Position numbers and translations under genes: made by a program
Shown here: positions 27,846 through 37,732 of the stretch, piece by piece
Layout of the letters: the number at the start of each line of letters is the position of its first letter
Numbering within the stretch: position 1 is the first letter of the stretch
Sequence record: PZ445450.1
Length of the DNA: 64,000 nt
Source: a phage
Reading direction: 5' to 3' (one strand)
The notes under the pieces: generated by a model
Database searches by the model: none
Told to the model about the DNA's origin: nothing
What the model saw: only the letters and a program-made list of their open reading frames with translations

Positions 27846-29051
27846 ATGATTTTCATCTACGAACATTTCAAAACCCGTAAAGAAGCACGAGACCGCCGTG
27901 CAGAACTTGAGAAGAAGGGTTTCACATGTGCCATTGAGAAAGGCGACACAACCTGGACACTGGCAGTTGGTGCCCCAGAGTTGTTCGATCCTGACCGTGA
28001 CAGCGTCTGCTACACCCGTGAGGATTTTGAAACCCGCGAAGAGGCCCGTTTATTTCGATACGGTCTGGAAGATAACGGTAAGTACGCTATGATCTTAGAT
28101 TTAGGCGAAGGTTCCGTTAAACGTTGGGGCGTGGTATACCCACTGTGTGTTGTTCACGGTGTGGGGTTCACTGGGGTAGCAATCAAGTCAGAAGAACCTT
28201 TAGTAGAAGTCAAAGATCCGGTGCTGGAGGTGGTGAGCAGTGTGTCTCAGCAACAGACTCGAAGCATCGAGCCTTTGGTAGTTATTTGTGGGGAACTCCT
28301 CCAGATCACCTGCAACGAAGGCATTTTTGAAATTCGCCGCAGCGAAAGTGAGGAAGTTTACCAGAAAGTCTTCGACCATATCTCTGTTCAGGAATATGAT
28401 GAGGCAATTGGTGAAATCCTTGTCTGGCTGGAACGCAAGAATGAGTTCACCACACTTGCAGACAACCTGATCATGAAAGATGGCAAGCTCTACTACTACG
28501 GTGTAGAGATGCGATCCACCATTGCAAAGAAAATTGAGAAAGATTATGCAGACGGAACGCTGGATGACCGCTATGTGAAATTCCTCGTTCGCCTGCTACG
28601 CAATCCTTCTGCAAAATCTGTAAACATGCTCTACGATTTTATGCAGGCCAACGATATCCAGATTGCAGAAGATGGTCGAATCATTTGCTACAAAGGGGTT
28701 CAGTTTAACGGCAGCAAGTGGGTGGATTGGCACAGTGGTAAAGTTCCACAATACCAGGGTGCTTTTGTATCCATGCCTCGTAACTTTGTAGAGGATGATC
28801 CGGAAGCTGCGTGCTCCTATGGCTTACACTGCGCCAGCAAAGAGTATGCAAAGAGCTACGGCACTGTAATGACTGTCATGGTTGACCCTGCAGATGTGGT
28901 TAGTGTGCCATACCAACACAATAGCGCCAAGTGCCGTGCATGCCGCTATGAGATTGTGGTAGCTCCGGAAGCACGCAAAGATGGAGACCCTATTGAATAT
29001 GTAGTTGATCGTGACGGTAACACTATCGACATTCTTTACGAGGAGGCGTAA
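27846..29051 (+). CDS. rIIB: rIIB-like protein
   Basis: C-terminal CSYGLHCASKEYAKSYGTV..VDPADVVSVPYQHNSAKCRACRYEIV closely parallels T4 rIIB as recalled from memory; not database-verified. Confidence 0.75.
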   Translation: MIFIYEHFKTRKEARDRRAELEKKGFTCAIEKGDTTWTLAVGAPELFDPDRDSVCYTREDFETREEARLFRYGLEDNGKYAMILDLGEGSVKRWGVVYPLCVVHGVGFTGVAIKSEEPLVEVKDPVLEVVSSVSQQQTRSIEPLVVICGELLQITCNEGIFEIRRSESEEVYQKVFDHISVQEYDEAIGEILVWLERKNEFTTLADNLIMKDGKLYYYGVEMRSTIAKKIEKDYADGTLDDRYVKFLVRLLRNPSAKSVNMLYDFMQANDIQIAEDGRIICYKGVQFNGSKWVDWHSGKVPQYQGAFVSMPRNFVEDDPEAACSYGLHCASKEYAKSYGTVMTVMVDPADVVSVPYQHNSAKCRACRYEIVVAPEARKDGDPIEYVVDRDGNTIDILYEEA

Positions 29052-30421
29052 TGGAAAAAGGGCAGTATGATGTAGGCACAGATGCTGCCCTCGTTGCAAT
29101 CATGAGCGGTGAGAATGTCTTCGTTTCAGGACCTGCAGGTTGTGGGAAGACGTATCTCATCAACATGATCCAGTCGATGTATGGAGACTCTTGCATAACG
29201 GTTGCCCCGACAGGGGTAGCCGCTTTAAACGTTAATGGAGCAACAGCACACCGAACCTTCGATCTTGCAGCAGGTGTGAGCATGGAGTCAGACTGGACCG
29301 CAATAAGGGCAAAAACAGCAAAGCCTTTGAAAAGCAAGGCATTTACCATCCTAATTATCGATGAAATCTCTATGATCCGTGCTGATAAGTTTATAGAGAT
29401 GGATAGGAAACTCCGCTTCCTTCGAAAAAATGACAAACCTTTCGGAGGCATACAGGTCATATTGTTTGGCGATTTTTACCAGGCACCTCCTGTTGTCTCT
29501 TCTATGGAGAAGGAAGCCTACTTCAACTTCTACCATACGGACCTGTGTTGCTATACCGAATCTTGGAAAGAGCTTGACCTCCACAACATAGCCCTAGTAG
29601 ATCAGTTCCGACAGGAGTCTATTCGATTTGCTACAATGCTCAACTGTGTTCGTGAGGGTCGTCGCATAAAAGAGGTTGTAGCAGAACTTAATGCTCGCTG
29701 TTACAAAGGAGGTGTACCAACAGACGCTCTCACAATTTGCGCCACCAACAAACAAGCAGAGGAAGTGAACAGAAGGTTCTATGATGCCATCAACGCCCCA
29801 GAGAAGGTATACACTGGTGAAATGAAGGGTAAGTTTCCCTCCACCCTGCCAGTTGAGCAGGAGATGAAGTTGAAAATTGGCATGAAAGTTATGATAACCG
29901 CCAACGATGTTGACCCGACGCACAAAGTACCTTATTATGTTAACGGAACACGTGCTACAATTGTTAAATTTAAGAACAAGGCGGTGGTGGTAGAGCTTGA
30001 AGATGGAACACAGGTTGACATAGAGCAGAGGTTGTGGGAGAATAACGAGTATAAGCCATCTCAGAGATACAACATTGCAGAAAGGAAGATGGAGAAGTTT
30101 ATAGAGAGGGTAGTGATTGGGTCATACAAGCAACTTCCTCTGAAATCTGGGTACGCCGTAACATCTCATAAAAGTCAAGGACTTACACTAGATTGTTACA
30201 ACCTAGACCTTGGAAAGAACGGAGCTTTCTCTCCTGGGATGACGTATGTCGCTTTGAGTAGAGTTAAGACAATACAAGGAATAAACTTGTTGCGTCCACT
30301 AAGAGAGGTTGACATTATTGTTGACCCGCGAGTCGTAGAGTTTTACAATACAACATTCCCTGACTTAGACAAAATTGTCAGGAAAGATTTTGAAACCAGA
30401 GCAGAAGAGGGGGACGTATGA
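29051..30421 (+). CDS. dda: Dda-like SF1B DNA helicase
   Basis: Walker A GPAGCGKT, motif II IIDEISM, QAPPV, VTSHKSQGLTLD and YVALSRVK; 456 aa. Confidence 0.75.
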   Translation: MEKGQYDVGTDAALVAIMSGENVFVSGPAGCGKTYLINMIQSMYGDSCITVAPTGVAALNVNGATAHRTFDLAAGVSMESDWTAIRAKTAKPLKSKAFTILIIDEISMIRADKFIEMDRKLRFLRKNDKPFGGIQVILFGDFYQAPPVVSSMEKEAYFNFYHTDLCCYTESWKELDLHNIALVDQFRQESIRFATMLNCVREGRRIKEVVAELNARCYKGGVPTDALTICATNKQAEEVNRRFYDAINAPEKVYTGEMKGKFPSTLPVEQEMKLKIGMKVMITANDVDPTHKVPYYVNGTRATIVKFKNKAVVVELEDGTQVDIEQRLWENNEYKPSQRYNIAERKMEKFIERVVIGSYKQLPLKSGYAVTSHKSQGLTLDCYNLDLGKNGAFSPGMTYVALSRVKTIQGINLLRPLREVDIIVDPRVVEFYNTTFPDLDKIVRKDFETRAEEGDV

Positions 30422-30759
30422 GTTTGTGGAGAAATATCGTTAACTACGTGTGCGGCAATCCAACTCCTGAAGAGAAGGATGTTGTGATTCACGATTTTAC
30501 TAAAAGATCTCGTGAAAAAGATCTACTGCTAACAAAGGTGACTGATAAAGATCCTGCAGTAGGGGACTGGGCAGGTTTTGCGTTTACATCGGACAAATAC
30601 ACCTTTAACAAAGGTGACTACCTTGTTGTGGATTTTAACGAAGACATTGAGGGTGCTGAACCTTACTATCAAACCCTTATTGTTGCAGGGTGTGTTGATC
30701 TCTCTGCAGGCATGCACAGTTTGATTCTTTTTGAGCTTGACTCTGAAGACCTTGAGTAG
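30418..30759 (+). CDS. Hypothetical protein
   Basis: 113-aa ORF overlapping helicase stop. Confidence 0.4.
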   Translation: MSLWRNIVNYVCGNPTPEEKDVVIHDFTKRSREKDLLLTKVTDKDPAVGDWAGFAFTSDKYTFNKGDYLVVDFNEDIEGAEPYYQTLIVAGCVDLSAGMHSLILFELDSEDLE

Positions 30760-30819
30760 TAAGATGTGAGTATAAAGGGGAGGCACTCCTCCCCACAAAA
30801 ACTAAGGAAGCACTAAACG

Positions 30820-31122
30820 ATGAAACGTTATAAACCATACACTTTTGAAATCGATTTCGAACTTGACGATATGTTTACTGTGGAAGCTCAGGCAGTTGTC
30901 CAGTTGCCAGACTCGGAGTGCCGTGACTCTGATGTTGACTATTACGGGTTTAGACAAATTACCGATGTGCGTGTTTACCACAACGGTGAAGAGGTGGACT
31001 TCCACCAACTGCCAAACGATATGCGCCACTCAATTTACAAACGTGCAGCCCGTGAACTAGAGTCCTATCTGGATGCAGCGACGACAGCAGCTGCATTTGC
31101 TGAAGAAGTGGGAGGTTTCTGA
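30820..31122 (+). CDS. Hypothetical protein
   Basis: 100-aa ORF after a GC stem-loop near 30775-30792. Confidence 0.4.
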   Translation: MKRYKPYTFEIDFELDDMFTVEAQAVVQLPDSECRDSDVDYYGFRQITDVRVYHNGEEVDFHQLPNDMRHSIYKRAARELESYLDAATTAAAFAEEVGGF

Positions 31123-31529: not shown

Positions 31530-32012
31530 ATGTCAGATTTTATGTGGAAAGTTGGTTATTCCTCCCCTGAAATGTGTAAGGCCTGTTTTGTGAAAATAGG
31601 TCGCGAGGATATCGACAAAGTGATTCTTAAGTTTCGTGATGTGGCTGTAATCGGCAACCGAGTGCTTAAGCACTTAAAGAATCTGAAGCTCACCAAAAAG
31701 AAGTTCTTTGGACTTTTCGAAGAGAAGGTTGATGCTTGGACCCATTGCATTCAGGAAGCTAAATCTCACTACAGTGCTATCATTACCCCAGAACGGGTAG
31801 CCAAGATGGAAGGATTCATAAACAGCACAGAGTTTGAGTGCCTGAAAGCTGCACTTGATAGTTATCCGAAATGCCTCAAGCACTTGGACAAGTATGTAGA
31901 AAAGGATGGGGAAATGTACCTAACCCTGGACGCATATTATGAGATGCAAGAAATTTTAAATTTAGATTTGACATTGGTATCCACCGAGTATACAATAGGT
32001 ATCCGGGTTTAA
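31530..32012 (+). CDS. Hypothetical protein
   Basis: 160-aa ORF with GGAGAAGG RBS. Confidence 0.45.
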   Translation: MSDFMWKVGYSSPEMCKACFVKIGREDIDKVILKFRDVAVIGNRVLKHLKNLKLTKKKFFGLFEEKVDAWTHCIQEAKSHYSAIITPERVAKMEGFINSTEFECLKAALDSYPKCLKHLDKYVEKDGEMYLTLDAYYEMQEILNLDLTLVSTEYTIGIRV

Positions 32013-32018
32013 CACTAG

Positions 32019-32047
32019 GCCCTGCCCGAAAGGGTGGGGCTTTTTGC
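32019..32047 (+). terminator. Rho-independent terminator (one of two identical copies)
   Basis: GCCCTGCCC-GAAA-GGGTGGGGC then TTTTT; identical 23-mer recurs at 42168. Confidence 0.7.
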
Positions 32048-32063
32048 ATTAGGAGACAGCAAA

Positions 32064-32828
32064 TTGAAATTCATCTACAAAGAACACTACCACAAAGGTG
32101 TTGTGTGGAGTCTATTTGACGGGTCTGGTGGTGCAGTTATTGACTGGGCAAAAGCTGGGTACCTGTGCCTGTGCTTTAATGCAGAAGGTGCTGACCACGG
32201 CAGTTATGCAGAGGTGATAACCGATCATCCTAACATTCACTATGTGGATTATTGGATTGACCCATGGTTCCCTCAAGAAACTTTTTGCATGTATCCAGCT
32301 CCAGACTTTATTCTTGCATTTCCTCCGTGCACGCATTTAGCAGTATCCGGAGCTGCACACTTTAAGAAAAAGCTGGCTAAGGACCCACTGATCCAAATTA
32401 ATGCTGTGAAAGATGCTCGGGTTGCGGAAGAGTTGGGAGAGATTTACGATTGCCCGTGGCATGTAGAGAATCCTGTAGGGGTTATGTCCACACTGTGGCG
32501 AAAACCTGATTACCGTTTTCATCCTTCGGATTATGGTGGGTATTTACCGGAGGATGATGTAAACCCCTGGTTTCCTGAATTTATAGCTCCACGTGATGCC
32601 TATCCAAAAATAACTTGCGGCTGGATAGGCAATGGATTTATAATCCCGGCCACAAAACCTGTCCCGCAAATAGTTGACGCGGTTAGCGGGTATTCCATGC
32701 AACACGCCAAGCTGGGTGGAAAGAGTGCAAGAACGAAGATGATCCGAAGCCTCACGCCACGTGGCTGGGCAAAAGCCGTATTCTTAGCAAACGAGCCTGT
32801 AGTAAGGAGCAGAATTAATGGGAAGTAA
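32064..32828 (+). CDS. Compact C5-cytosine DNA methyltransferase-like protein
   Basis: Motif I LFDGSGG, motif IV-like FPPCTHLAVSG (Thr where Gln is usual), motif VI HVENPVG, C-terminal RSLTPRGWAKAV; start tentatively TTG 32064 after AGGAGA. Confidence 0.5.
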   Translation: MKFIYKEHYHKGVVWSLFDGSGGAVIDWAKAGYLCLCFNAEGADHGSYAEVITDHPNIHYVDYWIDPWFPQETFCMYPAPDFILAFPPCTHLAVSGAAHFKKKLAKDPLIQINAVKDARVAEELGEIYDCPWHVENPVGVMSTLWRKPDYRFHPSDYGGYLPEDDVNPWFPEFIAPRDAYPKITCGWIGNGFIIPATKPVPQIVDAVSGYSMQHAKLGGKSARTKMIRSLTPRGWAKAVFLANEPVVRSRINGK

Positions 32829-34896
32829 ATTTATGGCATCTGCATACAACCGTTTCGGTGAGCCAAACCCGAAAGCAACTAAGTATAAAAGTGGGGGAAG
32901 TGTGAAACGAGACTATCGTGATGAAAAAGAGGTTGAAACTGTAGAGACTGTTTTAGAAAATACTAAAATCGTCCCTGTCCCACAACAAAATATCGGTCTG
33001 ATGGCTGCACAATATTTTGGTGTGCGATCAGCATTGTCCCAAGAAGACGGTGTGACAGTTACTGCAACATATTTCCCATATTACGACCGCTACGGAAATC
33101 TGTCCGGTTTCAAAAAGCGTGACTGGACGATTCCTAAAGAGCAAAGAGGCCATTTCTCCGTTGTTGGCATAGTAAAGGCTAACTCTCAGATGTTTGGTCA
33201 AAAGCTGTGTGCATCTTCCAACAACCGTAAGCAGATTAACGTTTGTGAGGGAGAAGGTGATGTTATTGCAGCATGGCAGGCTGCATATCAGATACAAGTA
33301 AAAGGGATTCTCACCAACGCTAAAGCCCCAGCAAAGGTGAAGCAGTGGGCTAAAGAGGTCCAGGACGGGATCGACGCAGTTATCAACGGTGGTGATCTGG
33401 CAGGAAAACCCTGCCTGCCTTTTGTTGGAATTAACTGTGGATGTGCAAACGCAGTAGATACTTTTGCAAACAATGAGAAGTTTATCCGTAGCTATGGAAC
33501 AGTTGTGCTGGCAATGGATAACGATGCAGCTAACGAGGTAGAGAAGCAAAAACACGTCATTAAAGGTGTTGAGGCTACGCACAATATCGCAGCATTTTTG
33601 ATGGCTGATAACGTTTACCACGTAGAGTACCCTGGTGAAGTAAACGATCCTGACGGTGTAAAAGATATCCGTGACATGCTGAAGGCTAAAAAGCTGGAAG
33701 ATATTGTAAACATGTTCCGGCATCCTGTTAAGTATGTACCGGATGCTGTATCGGATTTAGAAGACTTCTCTATCGAATCTTTGCGGAAAAAGACTTCCAA
33801 CGGGGTAGATATCAGCGCAGAGTTCCCAAAACTGCAAAAAATGCTAAAAGGCTTGCACAAAGGGACACTCGTAATGCTTACAGGTCCATCAGGAGGCGGT
33901 AAAACAACTGTAGCTAAAAAACTGGAACACTGTATTGCAAGATACCTAATGGACCCGACATGTCCAAAGGCTGATGATTACGAAGAGGATGATCGTCTAT
34001 GCATGATTCATCTTGAGGAGGACCCAGAGGAAGCAATTAACTCCTTGTATGCAAACCAGTTAGGGTTTGATGTTAAAGAGTTTGTTGAAGATCCTAGCCA
34101 GTTTTTAACTGATCAAGAACACGCAGAGATTCACCAATCATGGGCAAAAGCTGGAAAAATCAAAGTGTTCAAACATTTCGGGTCTATTCCGGTGGACGAG
34201 TTGATTACCAAGCTTAAGCAAATGGTTTGCCTGTACCATTGTCGTTATATTGTGCTGGATCACCTGTCCATGGTAATTTCGGGGCTTAATGTTAAGGATG
34301 AGCGAAAAGAGCTGGACATGGCTATGACCCAACTGGCTGCGTTTTGTAAGCAGTTTAACGTGTTTATCTTGGTGATCGCTCACCTCAAACGTACAGAGAT
34401 TGTGCCTCCTAAAGACAAGGATGGTAACCCGTTACCTTTCTGGTATCCTGTGCGAAAAGAGAATTTGCGAGGATCGGCTGGGCTTGAACAGTTGAGTTGG
34501 GTAGTCATAGGTGTCGAGGCCGAAGAAATGGTGGATCGTTCTCGTGGGCGTGTCCGTTTAGTAGGTCTTAAAAACCGTCCAGCAAAAACATTGGGTATTG
34601 CAGACACTTTGGTTATGGACCCACATACAGGTAAGTTTCATGATGCCAGTAATTGGTACTGGGACAAAGAAATGCAAATGTTTACAGATGGAGAAGGTGG
34701 GGAGGTTGTTTGGAGACCTCAGGCTATGTTTGAGGATCAGGAGCATGCAGTTGTAGAAACACCTATGGGCAAGGTTGTGGCTGATAAGGTTGTAACTCCT
34801 ACTGTTAAGCCTGTTGACACACAAGAAGACCTTCCGTATGATGATCCGTCCTCTGACCCTGTTCCTGGTTTTGAAGACGATGAAACACCTTTTTAA
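32818..34896 (+). CDS. Bifunctional primase-helicase (T7 gp4-like)
   Basis: TOPRIM-like CEGEGD; DnaB-family Walker A LTGPSGGGKTT; 692 aa. Confidence 0.75.
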   Translation: MGSKFMASAYNRFGEPNPKATKYKSGGSVKRDYRDEKEVETVETVLENTKIVPVPQQNIGLMAAQYFGVRSALSQEDGVTVTATYFPYYDRYGNLSGFKKRDWTIPKEQRGHFSVVGIVKANSQMFGQKLCASSNNRKQINVCEGEGDVIAAWQAAYQIQVKGILTNAKAPAKVKQWAKEVQDGIDAVINGGDLAGKPCLPFVGINCGCANAVDTFANNEKFIRSYGTVVLAMDNDAANEVEKQKHVIKGVEATHNIAAFLMADNVYHVEYPGEVNDPDGVKDIRDMLKAKKLEDIVNMFRHPVKYVPDAVSDLEDFSIESLRKKTSNGVDISAEFPKLQKMLKGLHKGTLVMLTGPSGGGKTTVAKKLEHCIARYLMDPTCPKADDYEEDDRLCMIHLEEDPEEAINSLYANQLGFDVKEFVEDPSQFLTDQEHAEIHQSWAKAGKIKVFKHFGSIPVDELITKLKQMVCLYHCRYIVLDHLSMVISGLNVKDERKELDMAMTQLAAFCKQFNVFILVIAHLKRTEIVPPKDKDGNPLPFWYPVRKENLRGSAGLEQLSWVVIGVEAEEMVDRSRGRVRLVGLKNRPAKTLGIADTLVMDPHTGKFHDASNWYWDKEMQMFTDGEGGEVVWRPQAMFEDQEHAVVETPMGKVVADKVVTPTVKPVDTQEDLPYDDPSSDPVPGFEDDETPF

Positions 34897-34954: not shown

Positions 34955-37732
34955 ATGAGTATGTATAGCTTCGATTTTGAGGCCTCTGGGCTTTTGGAAG
35001 ATCCAGACCTTTATTATCACTGCGGCCTGTTTAAAGCGTTGAATAAGAACCGTTTTATGCTGTTCCTTCCTCTGAATGACCGCACACACTACTCCGAGGA
35101 GGATATAGAAAAGGCTAAGAACTTCATTCTGGCAAAGAAAACTCTTTATAAAGATTTTGAAGTTCGCATAGCAGATTTTTCGGAGTTGGAAGGTTGGCTT
35201 ACAGGCAATTCTGACTGGTCACCAACAGCTTTGAACTGCCATAACTGCTACAGTTATGACTTTATGCTAATGGAAAGATTATCCGGTATTCATTTTGATA
35301 TGTTCCGTGATCCTAAATGCATGGGGACTATCAACGACCACCAGGTTAACCTGTTTGATACGTTGGCTATGAGCCGAATCTTGTGGCCTGATCGCCCTTT
35401 ACCAAAAGGTTGTCCGGACGCTGTATTCAACCCGGTTACTAAGAAAATGCAACCTGTTGGTCCTCACGGCCTTATGGCATGGGGCTACGCCCTTGGTAAC
35501 CAGAAAGTTCAAATTGATGACTGGCGCGATCTTCCGCTGTGGAAATATGTGGATCGTGTGTTCGAGGACGTTATCATCCAGGAGTTGCTCTGGAAAGAGT
35601 TGGTAGCGGAATCAAAAGGTGTATTCTACGGCAAATCTGACATGCAGAACTTTATGTATGACCCTGCCAAAGAGAAGCCTAAAGGATTCAAGAAGATTAC
35701 CTGGAAGAATGCATTACGCCGAGGCATGCTGCAGCATTTCCTGATGGAGTTGCAGGCTCGACAGGGTGTGTATTTCGACATAGATGGGGCTATTGCTTTA
35801 CGTGACCGCTGCGATGCGTGGATGAAAGAGATCGCTGATCGTGTTGAACCACAACTTCCTTTAAAAGAGTTATCAATGTCTCAGCGGCCTAAGTTCCCTG
35901 AAAAGCCGTTTAACCAGGATGGGACAATCTCCAATAATGGTTGGAAATGGTTAAAAGACAAGCTTGGCTACCCTGTGGACATGAGTGCTTTAGAATTCAA
36001 AGCTCCTCCTAAGCGAGCATTTACCTCCACAGGAGATGTCAGTAAGATGGGGATAAAATGGTGTGAAGAGATGGGCTGTAAAGACCCTGATAAGATGGCG
36101 GATTTCTTGAGGGGCTATATCAAGGGCACCTCCACACCACAACCTTTACCTAAAGAGCTAATGGATCAGGCAATAAGCGATCTACAGCAGAAGCGAATGC
36201 CTGACTGCAAGATACCTATGAAAATCAGCAATCAGGACGATATTAAGCGATACCTGATCAGTGCTGGTTGGCTTCCGACAATGTGGAGAACTAAGGATGT
36301 AACTAAAGACAGCAAGAAGAAAGCTCTACCTGATGCAGATGTTGATGCACGAGTGTATGCATATATGGACGAGCTTTTAGAGTCAGAGTATTGTGACCTA
36401 ATTATCAACTTCTGGAACAAAACTGATGCTAAGTTCCAGACAACCGTGCACAAGTTCCGAAGCTTTCCTAACTCCGAAAGGATTAAAAAGGAAGTATTCG
36501 GGAAAATACGTAGAAAAGCTAGGGCACTTATTACTTCTCCGCAACTGAAAGATACGTTTGGACACCTATGCCCGAATCTTGAAAAATTGAACGGAGAGAT
36601 GGCTAAAGATATCGTCTTGTGGTTATCATTGCGAAACCGCAGATCGGTCCTTGATCCAATCAAGGAGGATAAGGTTGATACTGGTCTTCTTAATCACCCA
36701 CGTTTGAAGATTGACCATAAGCTTCCTGCTAAAAGTTCTGGATTAACAAACACTTCCCGACAGAAACACAGTATTTGTGCAAACATGCCTAAACCATCTC
36801 CTAAAGTGGTTATGGGTAAAGAGATGCGTAGTCTGTGGGGTGTTCCTCCAGGATACTTTGAGATCGGTATTGACGGGTCCAACTTAGAGCAGCTTATCGG
36901 GGCTTGGGGTGCCTTTGAGTTCGACAACGGCTTGTACTATGATGTTGTAAGTAACGGAGACGCACACCAAAACAATGCTGAGGCATATACAAAAGTAGCA
37001 GGCAAAGAGGTGTCTCGTAACGACGGTAAACCTATCACGTATGGGGTTATGTACGGGGCACAAAAAGATAAAGTTGCAGATATGCTGGATATCTCCCCAG
37101 AGTTGGGGCAAAGGGTGATCGATGCACTTTGGGATGCCAACCCCGGTCTTAAGGGGCGCAAAGAGGATCTGGAGAAATTCTGGGAAGCAACAGGTAAGAA
37201 GTTTATCTACTCTTTTGATGGTCATGCTATCTGGACCCGATCTAAACACTCTTTACTTAATGCATACCAACAAAATGGTGGTGCATCGCTGTGTGACTTA
37301 GTTGGGATACTCATGCACCACCAAATGGTGAAGCGTGGGTGGTACGATGAAGGTGTCCGTCGTATTATTTATTACCATGATGAGTACCAACTTCAGGTCC
37401 CTGACACACCTAAGTATAAGACTGTGTACACCTTCGACACAATTGAAGAATTGGAAGCATTTAAGGCAGAGCAGGAGGCCAAACTTCATGTGTTCGACGG
37501 TCATAAGTACAAAAAGGCACGCAAGGATGAAAACGGAAACGAAGTGGTTGACAGAGACGGAAACACGGTGTACGATCCTATCCTGAACGATGACGGAAAG
37601 CTTGAACTTATCTGGAGCCCTGTGGGTGAAATGGTGGTGCATTGCTTCTGGCAAGCTTCTAAAATGATGGGCGTTCCATTCCAGATCACAGGTGAATACT
37701 TGTGCGGTCGTAACTGGGGTGATTGTCACTAA
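34955..37732 (+). CDS. Family A DNA polymerase (Pol I/T7-type)
   Basis: Motif A-like IDGSNLEQLIGAW, motif B KPITYGVMYGAQ, motif C YYHDEYQL; 925 aa. Confidence 0.75.
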   Translation: MSMYSFDFEASGLLEDPDLYYHCGLFKALNKNRFMLFLPLNDRTHYSEEDIEKAKNFILAKKTLYKDFEVRIADFSELEGWLTGNSDWSPTALNCHNCYSYDFMLMERLSGIHFDMFRDPKCMGTINDHQVNLFDTLAMSRILWPDRPLPKGCPDAVFNPVTKKMQPVGPHGLMAWGYALGNQKVQIDDWRDLPLWKYVDRVFEDVIIQELLWKELVAESKGVFYGKSDMQNFMYDPAKEKPKGFKKITWKNALRRGMLQHFLMELQARQGVYFDIDGAIALRDRCDAWMKEIADRVEPQLPLKELSMSQRPKFPEKPFNQDGTISNNGWKWLKDKLGYPVDMSALEFKAPPKRAFTSTGDVSKMGIKWCEEMGCKDPDKMADFLRGYIKGTSTPQPLPKELMDQAISDLQQKRMPDCKIPMKISNQDDIKRYLISAGWLPTMWRTKDVTKDSKKKALPDADVDARVYAYMDELLESEYCDLIINFWNKTDAKFQTTVHKFRSFPNSERIKKEVFGKIRRKARALITSPQLKDTFGHLCPNLEKLNGEMAKDIVLWLSLRNRRSVLDPIKEDKVDTGLLNHPRLKIDHKLPAKSSGLTNTSRQKHSICANMPKPSPKVVMGKEMRSLWGVPPGYFEIGIDGSNLEQLIGAWGAFEFDNGLYYDVVSNGDAHQNNAEAYTKVAGKEVSRNDGKPITYGVMYGAQKDKVADMLDISPELGQRVIDALWDANPGLKGRKEDLEKFWEATGKKFIYSFDGHAIWTRSKHSLLNAYQQNGGASLCDLVGILMHHQMVKRGWYDEGVRRIIYYHDEYQLQVPDTPKYKTVYTFDTIEELEAFKAEQEAKLHVFDGHKYKKARKDENGNEVVDRDGNTVYDPILNDDGKLELIWSPVGEMVVHCFWQASKMMGVPFQITGEYLCGRNWGDCH

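What the first reader, a model, noticed from the sequence alone, without database searches (positions are those of the whole stretch)
32064..32828. Compact C5-methyltransferase-like protein with an atypical catalytic motif beside the replisome genes
Motifs I (LFDGSGG), VI (HVENPVG) and a C-terminal RSLTPRG box are present, but motif IV reads PPCT rather than PCQ and the protein is only about 255 aa, leaving little room for a target-recognition domain. It may be a minimal orphan methylase for anti-restriction or a DNA-modifying enzyme with altered chemistry.
Basis: partly seen in the sequence, partly recalled or inferred. Interest (0 to 1): 0.6.

Follow-up and report, generated by a model that had tools for sequence, protein, structure and literature searches.

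The report
Known compact phage cytosine-C5 DNA methyltransferase
This gene encodes a small phage DNA cytosine-C5 methyltransferase that GenBank already annotates as such in a phage with an identical protein, and a 54%-identical relative has been shown to make 5-methylcytosine, so the finding is real but ordinary.

Summary
A 254-aa ORF (TTG 32064 to stop 32828, + strand) carries LFDGSGG, PPCT, HVENPVG and RSLTPRG. It sits between a Dda-like helicase and the primase/helicase and family-A polymerase genes of an rV5-like (Vequintavirus) phage.

It is not new. The protein is 100% identical to CarlMeissner bas48_0074, annotated "Dcm-like C5 cytosine methyltransferase". It matches PHROG 757 at E 8e-87, and 1,503 phage records encode a relative.

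A 54%-identical homologue, from a KarlJaspers-like phage called K42, raised 5mC on retron Ec86 msDNA and triggers that retron (bioRxiv 10.1101/2023.08.16.553469). Its catalytic Cys and Glu align with C89 and E135 here.

"PPCT" and the small size are traits of the whole family, not a degenerate active site; DNMT3A itself reads SPCND. Altered chemistry is not supported.

Still open: the exact target site (CCWGG is assumed, not mapped) and which canonical motif the C-terminal box corresponds to.

The parts
31968..31996 (+). Sigma-70-like promoter match (TTGACA-17-TACAAT, 11 of 12) inside the 3' end of the upstream ORF
   Evidence: This is a consensus match only. It lies directly upstream of the hairpin, so its function is uncertain.
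32017..32042 (+). Terminator-like G+C-rich hairpin followed by a T run, ending the upstream gene block. It contains the alternative GTG start at 32034.
32051..32055 (+). Ribosome-binding site AGGAG, 8 nt before the TTG start
   Evidence: Read directly from the sequence.
32064..32828 (+). Coding sequence of the 254-aa compact Dcm-like DNA cytosine-C5 methyltransferase (PHROG 757), stop codon included
32109..32129 (+). Motif I, SLFDGSG (residues 16-22), the AdoMet-binding loop
   Evidence: hhalign aligns it to DNMT3A SLFDGIA, E 1.6e-4. L17 is present in 68/73 members, D19 in 61/73 and G22 in 58/73.
32319..32333 (+). Motif IV, FPPCT (residues 86-90). C89 is the predicted catalytic nucleophile.
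   Evidence: C89 is present in 70/73 members. It aligns with C82 of the K42/KarlJaspers Dcm, one of four residues mutated in the inactive mutant, and with the Cys of DNMT3A SPCN and HhaI FPCQ.
32466..32474 (+). Motif VI, E135-N136-P137 (ENP in place of ENV)
   Evidence: E is present in 71/73 members, N in 70/73 and P in 73/73. It aligns with E128 of K42 Dcm and with ENV of DNMT3A, HhaI and E. coli Dcm.
32592..32639 (+). Motif VIII-like block RDAYPKITCGWIGNGF (residues 177-192). K182 and T184 stand where DNMT3A has R790 and R792.
   Evidence: Y180 is present in 73/73 members, K182 in 70/73 and W187 in 72/73. The register comes from a global hhalign against DNMT3A. K182 corresponds to K176 of K42 Dcm.
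32742..32765 (+). Conserved C-terminal box IRSLTPRG (residues 227-234), which precedes the final long helix (233-253)
   Evidence: R228 is present in 71/73 members, T231 in 65/73, P232 in 69/73 and G234 in 71/73. Helix. Its assignment to canonical motif IX or X is unresolved.
32818..34896 (+). Downstream primase/helicase gene, whose ATG overlaps the methyltransferase 3' end by 11 nt
   Evidence: CarlMeissner annotates the same start.

Best explanation
The ORF encodes an active, AdoMet-dependent DNA cytosine-C5 methyltransferase of the compact phage 'Dcm-like' family (PHROG 757).

Inferred mechanism: C89 of the Pro-Cys dipeptide attacks C6 of a flipped-out cytosine. E135 of the ENP motif contacts N3/N4, and K182 takes the place of the motif VIII arginine. 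The methyl group passes from AdoMet to C5, giving 5-methylcytosine.

Inferred expression: the gene lies within the replication gene block and overlaps the primase/helicase start, so it is probably expressed together with those genes and acts on replicating phage DNA and on host DNA.

Inferred function: there is no partner nuclease. Its most likely role is narrow, site-specific self-protection, probably at Dcm-type CCWGG sites, against EcoRII-type restriction. A side effect is that it can betray the phage to methylation-sensing defences such as retron Ec86/Eco1.

What is shown: the fold, the conserved catalytic residues, and homology to an enzyme shown by LC-MS to raise 5mC. What is inferred: the target sequence, the timing of expression and the protective role.
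For: - PHROG 757 'DNA methyltransferase', E 7.7e-87.
- 100% identity to a GenBank protein annotated 'Dcm-like C5 cytosine methyltransferase'.
- 54% identity (E 2e-86) to the KarlJaspers Dcm. Phage K42 is a KarlJaspers-like isolate (genomes 95.4% identical). Its Dcm raised 5mC on msDNA by LC-MS, and a C82A/E128A/K175A/K176A mutant did not. C82, E128 and K176 correspond to C89, E135 and K182 here.
- AlphaFold model with pLDDT 91 and pTM 0.90.
- The 50 listed Foldseek PDB hits are 49 DNMT3A/3B/3C structures and one prophage C5-methyltransferase (3g7u), best E 2.5e-6.
- hhalign of the family profile against DNMT3A gives E 1.6e-4 across motifs I-IV.
- Catalytic residues are near-invariant in 73 diverse members.
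- CCWGG is not avoided in the window: 140 observed against 160 expected.
Against: - Pfam PF00145 and NCBIfam give no hit for this protein. Only 1 of 73 relatives touches PF00145, at E 0.007.
- The profile search against PDB sequences is not significant: DNMT2 at E 0.27, M.HaeIII at E 0.75.
- The motif II acidic residue is N39 here (D in 66/73 relatives). Motif VIII has Lys/Thr where other enzymes have Arg-x-Arg.
- CCWGG specificity was never mapped. In the K42 study it was assumed from the name and from mutating the msDNA site, and the host strain already carries its own Dcm.
- BASEL found Vequintavirinae very sensitive to restriction-modification systems, and found no link between methyltransferase genes and restriction resistance in Drexlerviridae.
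- No experiment has been done on the rV5-clade protein itself.
Confidence: 0.85

Rival explanations
1. It is an active C5-methyltransferase, but its target is not CCWGG. It may recognise a shorter or relaxed site, or prefer single-stranded or hairpin DNA. That would fit its very small recognition region and DNMT3-like build.
For: - Only about 40 residues separate motif VIII (W187) from the C-terminal box (R228).
- There is no significant similarity to E. coli Dcm outside motifs IV-VI.
- In the K42 work the msDNA stayed at a low 5mC level in dcm-positive MG1655 until the phage enzyme was expressed. This hints that the phage enzyme's substrate preference differs from host Dcm.
Against: - Mutating CCTGG in the msDNA abolished defence against K42.
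- Vequintavirinae remain sensitive to the restriction-modification systems tested in BASEL, so methylation cannot be dense.
- Close relatives of this phage were isolated on E. coli K-12 MG1655 (host column). From general knowledge that strain carries McrBC, which cuts at purine-5mC sites. This argues, by inference only, against methylation in purine-C contexts.
Confidence: 0.3
2. It has altered chemistry. It transfers a group other than methyl, for example carboxymethyl from Cx-SAM as the phage enzyme CmoX does.
For: - From general knowledge, E. coli makes Cx-SAM through its own CmoA.
- The family has a near-invariant Arg (R228) in the C-terminal box, which might lie near the cofactor.
Against: - The 54%-identical K42 enzyme, which has the same PPCT, ENP and IRSLTPRG motifs, raised 5mC.
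- CmoX candidates were defined by an SPPC motif plus Arg at the position of HhaI N304, and are usually encoded together with CmoA and a ligase.
- Here the motif is FPPC, and neither CmoA nor a ligase is among the seven neighbouring ORFs scanned.
- DNMT3A, a true methyltransferase, also has PCN and an Arg in motif X (verified sequence).
Confidence: 0.03
3. It is not a DNA enzyme. It is a DNMT2-like RNA (tRNA) m5C methyltransferase, or a catalytically dead DNA-binding protein.
Against: - The catalytic Cys and Glu are conserved across more than 1,000 clusters, which argues against a dead enzyme.
- The homologue methylates DNA.
Confidence: 0.03

Closest known systems
Phage K42 / KarlJaspers (Bas06) Dcm, the trigger of retron Ec86 (Eco1); bioRxiv 10.1101/2023.08.16.553469
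   Same: - Same family: 54% identity over 235 residues, E 2e-86.
- Same compact size: 236 aa against 254 aa.
- Same PPCT, ENP, K-x-TC-W and IRSLTPRG motifs.
- Its catalytic C82, E128 and K176 correspond to C89, E135 and K182.
   Different: - Different phage group: a Drexlerviridae siphovirus against an rV5-like myovirus.
- K175 is P181 here.
- Different gene neighbourhood: small hypothetical genes there, the replisome block here.
- The rV5-clade enzyme has not been tested, either for activity or as a retron trigger.
Escherichia phage CarlMeissner (Bas48) bas48_0074, QXV76640.1, 'Dcm-like C5 cytosine methyltransferase'
   Same: - 100% identical protein with the same TTG start and the same neighbours.
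- 112 phage records cover at least 80% of the 5-kb region around the gene by megablast; 119 of the 122 matching records are at least 90% identical.
   Different: CarlMeissner carries an extra 1.33-kb N6-adenine methyltransferase gene 1.3 kb upstream, which this window lacks.
Eukaryotic DNMT3A/DNMT3B catalytic domain
   Same: - The only reference enzyme with significant profile similarity, E 1.6e-4.
- Shared SLFDG (motif I) and a PC-x-DL-type motif IV (PPCTHLA here, PPCTDLA in the family consensus, against SPCNDLS).
- Both have a short target-recognition region.
   Different: - Only 12-15% identity.
- ENP in place of ENV.
- Lys/Thr where DNMT3A has R790/R792.
- No regulatory domains.
- Whether it forms oligomers is unknown.
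E. coli Dcm / M.EcoRII (CCWGG) and M.HhaI, classical bacterial C5-methyltransferases (Pfam PF00145)
   Same: - Motifs I, IV and VI align in register.
   Different: - No significant sequence similarity: E 0.14-0.27.
- No PF00145 hit.
- 254 aa against 327 aa (HhaI) and 472 aa (Dcm).
- No recognisable large target-recognition domain.
- 'Dcm-like' is a functional label, not orthology.
CmoX, phage DNA C5-carboxymethyltransferase (PDB 8yf3; PMC12783734)
   Same: - Phage-encoded.
- Has a Pro-Pro-Cys motif.
   Different: - CmoX has SPPC plus Arg at the position of HhaI N304, and is usually encoded with CmoA and often a ligase.
- None of these features was found here.

Membership tests
DNA cytosine-C5 methyltransferase superfamily | Class I AdoMet-methyltransferase fold with the C5-methyltransferase arrangement | tested here: met
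   [not shown]
DNA cytosine-C5 methyltransferase superfamily | Motif I, the F-x-G-x-G AdoMet-binding loop | tested here: met
   SLFDGSGG at residues 16-23. It aligns with DNMT3A SLFDGIATG (E 1.6e-4) and with HhaI DLFAGLGG.
DNA cytosine-C5 methyltransferase superfamily | Motif IV, the Pro-Cys catalytic dipeptide | tested here: met
   P88-C89. C89 is conserved in 70/73 members and aligns with the catalytic Cys of DNMT3A, HhaI, E. coli Dcm and K42 Dcm. The next residue is T, not Q, but DNMT3A has N there.
DNA cytosine-C5 methyltransferase superfamily | Motif VI, the E-N-V glutamate | tested here: met
   E135-N136-P137, conserved in 71/73, 70/73 and 73/73 members. In register with ENV of the reference enzymes. 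V is replaced by P throughout the family.
DNA cytosine-C5 methyltransferase superfamily | Motif VIII, Arg-x-Arg contacting the target cytosine | tested here: inconclusive
   A global hhalign places K182 and T184 opposite DNMT3A R790 and R792. K182 is conserved in 70/73 members, but the Arg-x-Arg pair itself is absent.
DNA cytosine-C5 methyltransferase superfamily | Motifs IX and X at the C-terminus | tested here: inconclusive
   There is one conserved box, IRSLTPRG, followed by a long terminal helix. Pairwise and profile alignments do not assign it to motif IX or motif X.
DNA cytosine-C5 methyltransferase superfamily | Scores above the curated threshold of Pfam PF00145 | tested here: not met
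   No hit even at E up to 10. Only 1 of 73 relatives matches, at E 0.0067. The fold and motifs are met, so this reflects divergence beyond the reach of the model.
DNA cytosine-C5 methyltransferase superfamily | Makes 5-methylcytosine in DNA | not testable with these tools
   Shown by LC-MS only for the 54%-identical K42 homologue.
PHROG 757 / compact phage 'Dcm-like' methyltransferases | Full-length match to the family profile and to its characterised member | tested here: met
   E 7.7e-87 covering residues 2-251. 54% identity to KarlJaspers Dcm. 100% identity to CarlMeissner bas48_0074.
E. coli Dcm / M.EcoRII orthologues (CCWGG-specific) | Significant sequence similarity, including the target-recognition domain | tested here: not met
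   hhalign E 0.21-0.27, covering only the core motifs.
E. coli Dcm / M.EcoRII orthologues (CCWGG-specific) | Methylates the inner C of CCWGG | not testable with these tools
   Assumed, not mapped, for the K42 homologue. The window merely shows no avoidance of CCWGG.
CmoX DNA C5-carboxymethyltransferases | SPPC motif, Arg at the position of HhaI N304, and CmoA or a ligase in the neighbourhood | tested here: not met
   The motif is FPPC. No CmoA or ligase was found among the seven neighbouring ORFs scanned. The Arg position could not be mapped.

The most novel reading that the evidence does not exclude
These roughly 210-260-aa phage enzymes may be minimal, DNMT3-like C5-methyltransferases. Their sequence recognition would not use a classical target-recognition domain. 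It might instead come from the family-specific WRKPD...YGGYLP...RDAY loop region, or from dimerisation. Their true specificity may differ from CCWGG, for example a relaxed site or a preference for hairpin or single-stranded DNA at the replication fork. That would explain why the phage enzyme, but not host Dcm, raises 5mC on the retron msDNA and triggers the retron.
Probability: 0.2. Interest if true: 0.4.

Novelty: already known. Interest (0 to 1): 0.12.

Why it matters
It matters little as a discovery. The identical protein is already annotated in GenBank, the family is a PHROG, and a relative has been characterised.

Three modest points of value remain:
- Pfam PF00145 and NCBIfam miss this very common phage family (1,503 phage records, more than 1,000 clusters at 50% identity). 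Many records therefore still call it 'hypothetical protein'.
- The family is a natural example of a minimal C5-methyltransferase with a DNMT3-like core.
- Its real target sequence, and whether the rV5-clade enzyme also triggers retron Ec86, have not been measured.

Tried and rejected
- Pfam and NCBIfam scans of the protein found no methyltransferase hit.
- A Pfam scan of 73 relatives gave one weak PF00145 hit.
- phmmer and a family profile against PDB sequences gave only non-significant DNMT2 and M.HaeIII matches in motifs I-IV.
- hhalign against E. coli Dcm and M.HhaI put the motifs in register but was not significant.
- I tried to decide whether the RSLTPRG box is motif IX or motif X, using global and local hhalign and shuffled pairwise alignments. 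The results were inconsistent and not significant.
- I checked palindrome statistics for evidence of the target site. CCWGG is not avoided, which is compatible with protection but proves nothing.
- Literature searches for a mapped methylome of phages carrying this family found none. The published version of the retron paper is not held in the library.
- I rejected hypermodification and carboxymethylation, a tRNA methyltransferase, and a dead enzyme. The reasons are given under the rival explanations.

Full report
**What is there.** The window holds an ORF on the + strand that ends at 32828. It could start at GTG 32034 or TTG 32064. TTG 32064 is the credible start for three reasons:
- An AGGAG ribosome-binding site lies at 32051-32055.
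- GTG 32034 sits inside a terminator-like hairpin (32017-32042, followed by a T run) that closes the upstream gene block.
- GenBank annotates the same start in phage CarlMeissner.

The product is 254 aa. Its stop overlaps the ATG (32818) of the downstream primase/helicase gene by 11 nt. The neighbours are a Dda/PIF1-like helicase (29051-30421), four small genes of unknown function, the primase/helicase (32818-34896) and a family-A DNA polymerase (34955-37732).

**Where the window comes from.** A 5-kb stretch around the gene is 97-98% identical to rV5-like Escherichia phages of the genus Vequintavirus, such as HdK5, CM1 and CarlMeissner. It matches 122 phage records. The protein is 100% identical to CarlMeissner bas48_0074 (QXV76640.1), annotated "Dcm-like C5 cytosine methyltransferase". 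Other records name it "putative site specific DNA methylase", "DNA methyltransferase" or "hypothetical protein".

**How common the family is.**
- The protein matches PHROG 757 "DNA methyltransferase" over its whole length, E 7.7e-87.
- tblastn finds a relative in 1,503 phage records. These include Drexlerviridae, Krischvirus RB49, phiKO2, and many Klebsiella, Salmonella and Vibrio phages.
- The large protein collection holds 3,546 hits.
- An exhaustive search of 50%-identity representatives finds 1,018 clusters. Nearly all listed full-length hits are about 210-260 aa.

Small size is therefore a property of the family and not a truncation.

**Is it a C5-methyltransferase? Sequence evidence.** Sequence methods against the classical family are weak.
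- Pfam PF00145 and NCBIfam give nothing. Only 1 of 73 relatives touches PF00145.
- A family profile against PDB sequences gives only DNMT2 at E 0.27 and M.HaeIII at E 0.75.
- hhalign against E. coli Dcm and M.HhaI puts motifs I, IV and VI in the right register but without significance.
- Against the DNMT3A catalytic domain, hhalign is significant, E 1.6e-4. It aligns SLFDG with SLFDG and PPCTHLAVSG with SPCNDLSIVN.

**Is it a C5-methyltransferase? Structural evidence.** Structure settles the question.
- An AlphaFold model built on 64 homologues has pLDDT 91 and pTM 0.90.
- The 50 listed Foldseek PDB hits are DNMT3A/3B/3C catalytic domains plus one prophage C5-methyltransferase (3g7u).
- Among predicted viral structures the best matches are phage "DNA-cytosine methylases".

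**The catalytic residues.** In 73 diverse members the conservation is as follows:

| Residue | Conserved in |
|---|---|
| P87 | 69/73 |
| C89 | 70/73 |
| G96 | 73/73 |
| E135 | 71/73 |
| N136 | 70/73 |
| P137 | 73/73 |
| Y180 | 73/73 |
| K182 | 70/73 |
| W187 | 72/73 |
| R228 | 71/73 |
| P232 | 69/73 |
| G234 | 71/73 |

The residue after the catalytic Cys is T in 64/73 members. "PPCT" is thus the family consensus and not a local oddity. The Q of the bacterial PCQ motif is not universal either, since DNMT3A has N at that position. In the same way, ENP replaces ENV throughout the family.

Two real departures from the canon exist. First, Lys/Thr (K182, T184) stand where DNMT3A has R790 and R792. 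Second, the motif II acidic residue is N39 in this subfamily but D in 66/73 of the wider family. The experimentally active homologue shares both features.

**Experimental anchor.** A preprint on retron Ec86 (10.1101/2023.08.16.553469) isolated escape mutants of phage K42, a KarlJaspers-like phage. All four mutants had lesions in or just upstream of a 711-bp "Dcm-like C5 cytosine methyltransferase" gene.
- Expressing that gene was toxic only when the retron was present.
- LC-MS showed a high 5mC level on the msDNA with the wild-type enzyme. Levels were low with a C82A/E128A/K175A/K176A mutant and with empty vector.

The KarlJaspers orthologue is 54% identical to the window protein (E 2e-86). 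Its C82, E128 and K176 align with C89, E135 and K182. Many later papers cite the published version, [quoted passage not shown], but the library does not hold it.

**Mechanism and role.** The best explanation is a standard C5-methyltransferase reaction that produces 5mC in DNA. The enzyme has no partner nuclease and lies in the replication gene block.

The target site is uncertain. The K42 authors assumed CCWGG by analogy with host Dcm, and showed that mutating the CCTGG in the msDNA abolished defence. They did not map the enzyme's sites, and their host strain already carries Dcm.

In the window, CCWGG occurs 140 times against 160 expected, so it is not avoided. GTAC, CTAG and ACGT are depleted. 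This fits protection of CCWGG sites but does not prove it.

The BASEL study found Vequintavirinae "exceptionally susceptible" to restriction-modification systems. It also found no simple link between methyltransferase genes and restriction resistance in Drexlerviridae. Any protective role must therefore be narrow. Dense or exotic modification is unlikely.

**Verdict.** It is already annotated and belongs to a very common, partly characterised phage family. The "atypical" features are family-wide and are shared with a proven 5mC-forming enzyme. Novelty: already known. Interest: low.

Three questions remain open: the exact target sequence, how so small an enzyme reads that sequence, and whether the rV5-clade enzyme also triggers retron Ec86.

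Noticed in passing
window 30759-30823 (junction at about 30815-30823): Relative to phage CarlMeissner (about 97% identical here), the window lacks a 1.33-kb gene annotated 'putative N6 adenine methyltransferase'. In CarlMeissner it lies between the homologues of ORFs 30418-30759 and 30820-31122. tblastn finds no copy elsewhere in the window.
   Followed up: partly
window 31968-32066: A near-consensus sigma-70-like promoter (TTGACA-17-TACAAT, 11 of 12) at 31968-31996 is followed within about 20 nt by a strong terminator-like hairpin (32017-32042 plus a T run). Then come the ribosome-binding site and the TTG start of the methyltransferase. A promoter firing straight into a terminator is an odd arrangement.
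   Followed up: no
window 32818-32828: The methyltransferase 3' end overlaps the ATG of the primase/helicase gene by 11 nt, which suggests translational coupling with the replisome genes.
   Followed up: no
whole window: Palindrome statistics against a Markov expectation: GTAC 0.62x, CTAG 0.57x, ACGT 0.74x. TGGCCA occurs 0 times against 10.8 expected, GGCGCC 0 against 8.1, and CCCGGG is absent. CCWGG (0.87x) and GATC (0.96x) are not avoided.
   Followed up: partly
window 32178-32180 (residue N39): The motif II position is Asp in 66/73 diverse family members. It is an invariant Asn in the subfamily that holds the rV5-like and KarlJaspers enzymes. This position usually carries the acidic residue that binds the AdoMet ribose.
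   Followed up: partly
window 30820-31122: This 100-aa ORF of unknown function (phrog_4240) weakly matches the C-terminal part of phrog_1573 'DNA methyltransferase', E 2e-4. It lies immediately next to the site where relatives carry the N6-adenine methyltransferase gene.
   Followed up: no
related proteins (BFVD A0A6J5SE15, 1,397 aa; A0A6J5NPY6, 1,126 aa): In some uncultured phages a structurally similar methyltransferase domain (23-26% identity) forms part of a very large protein. One of these is named 'Helicase/UvrB, N-terminal'.
   Followed up: no
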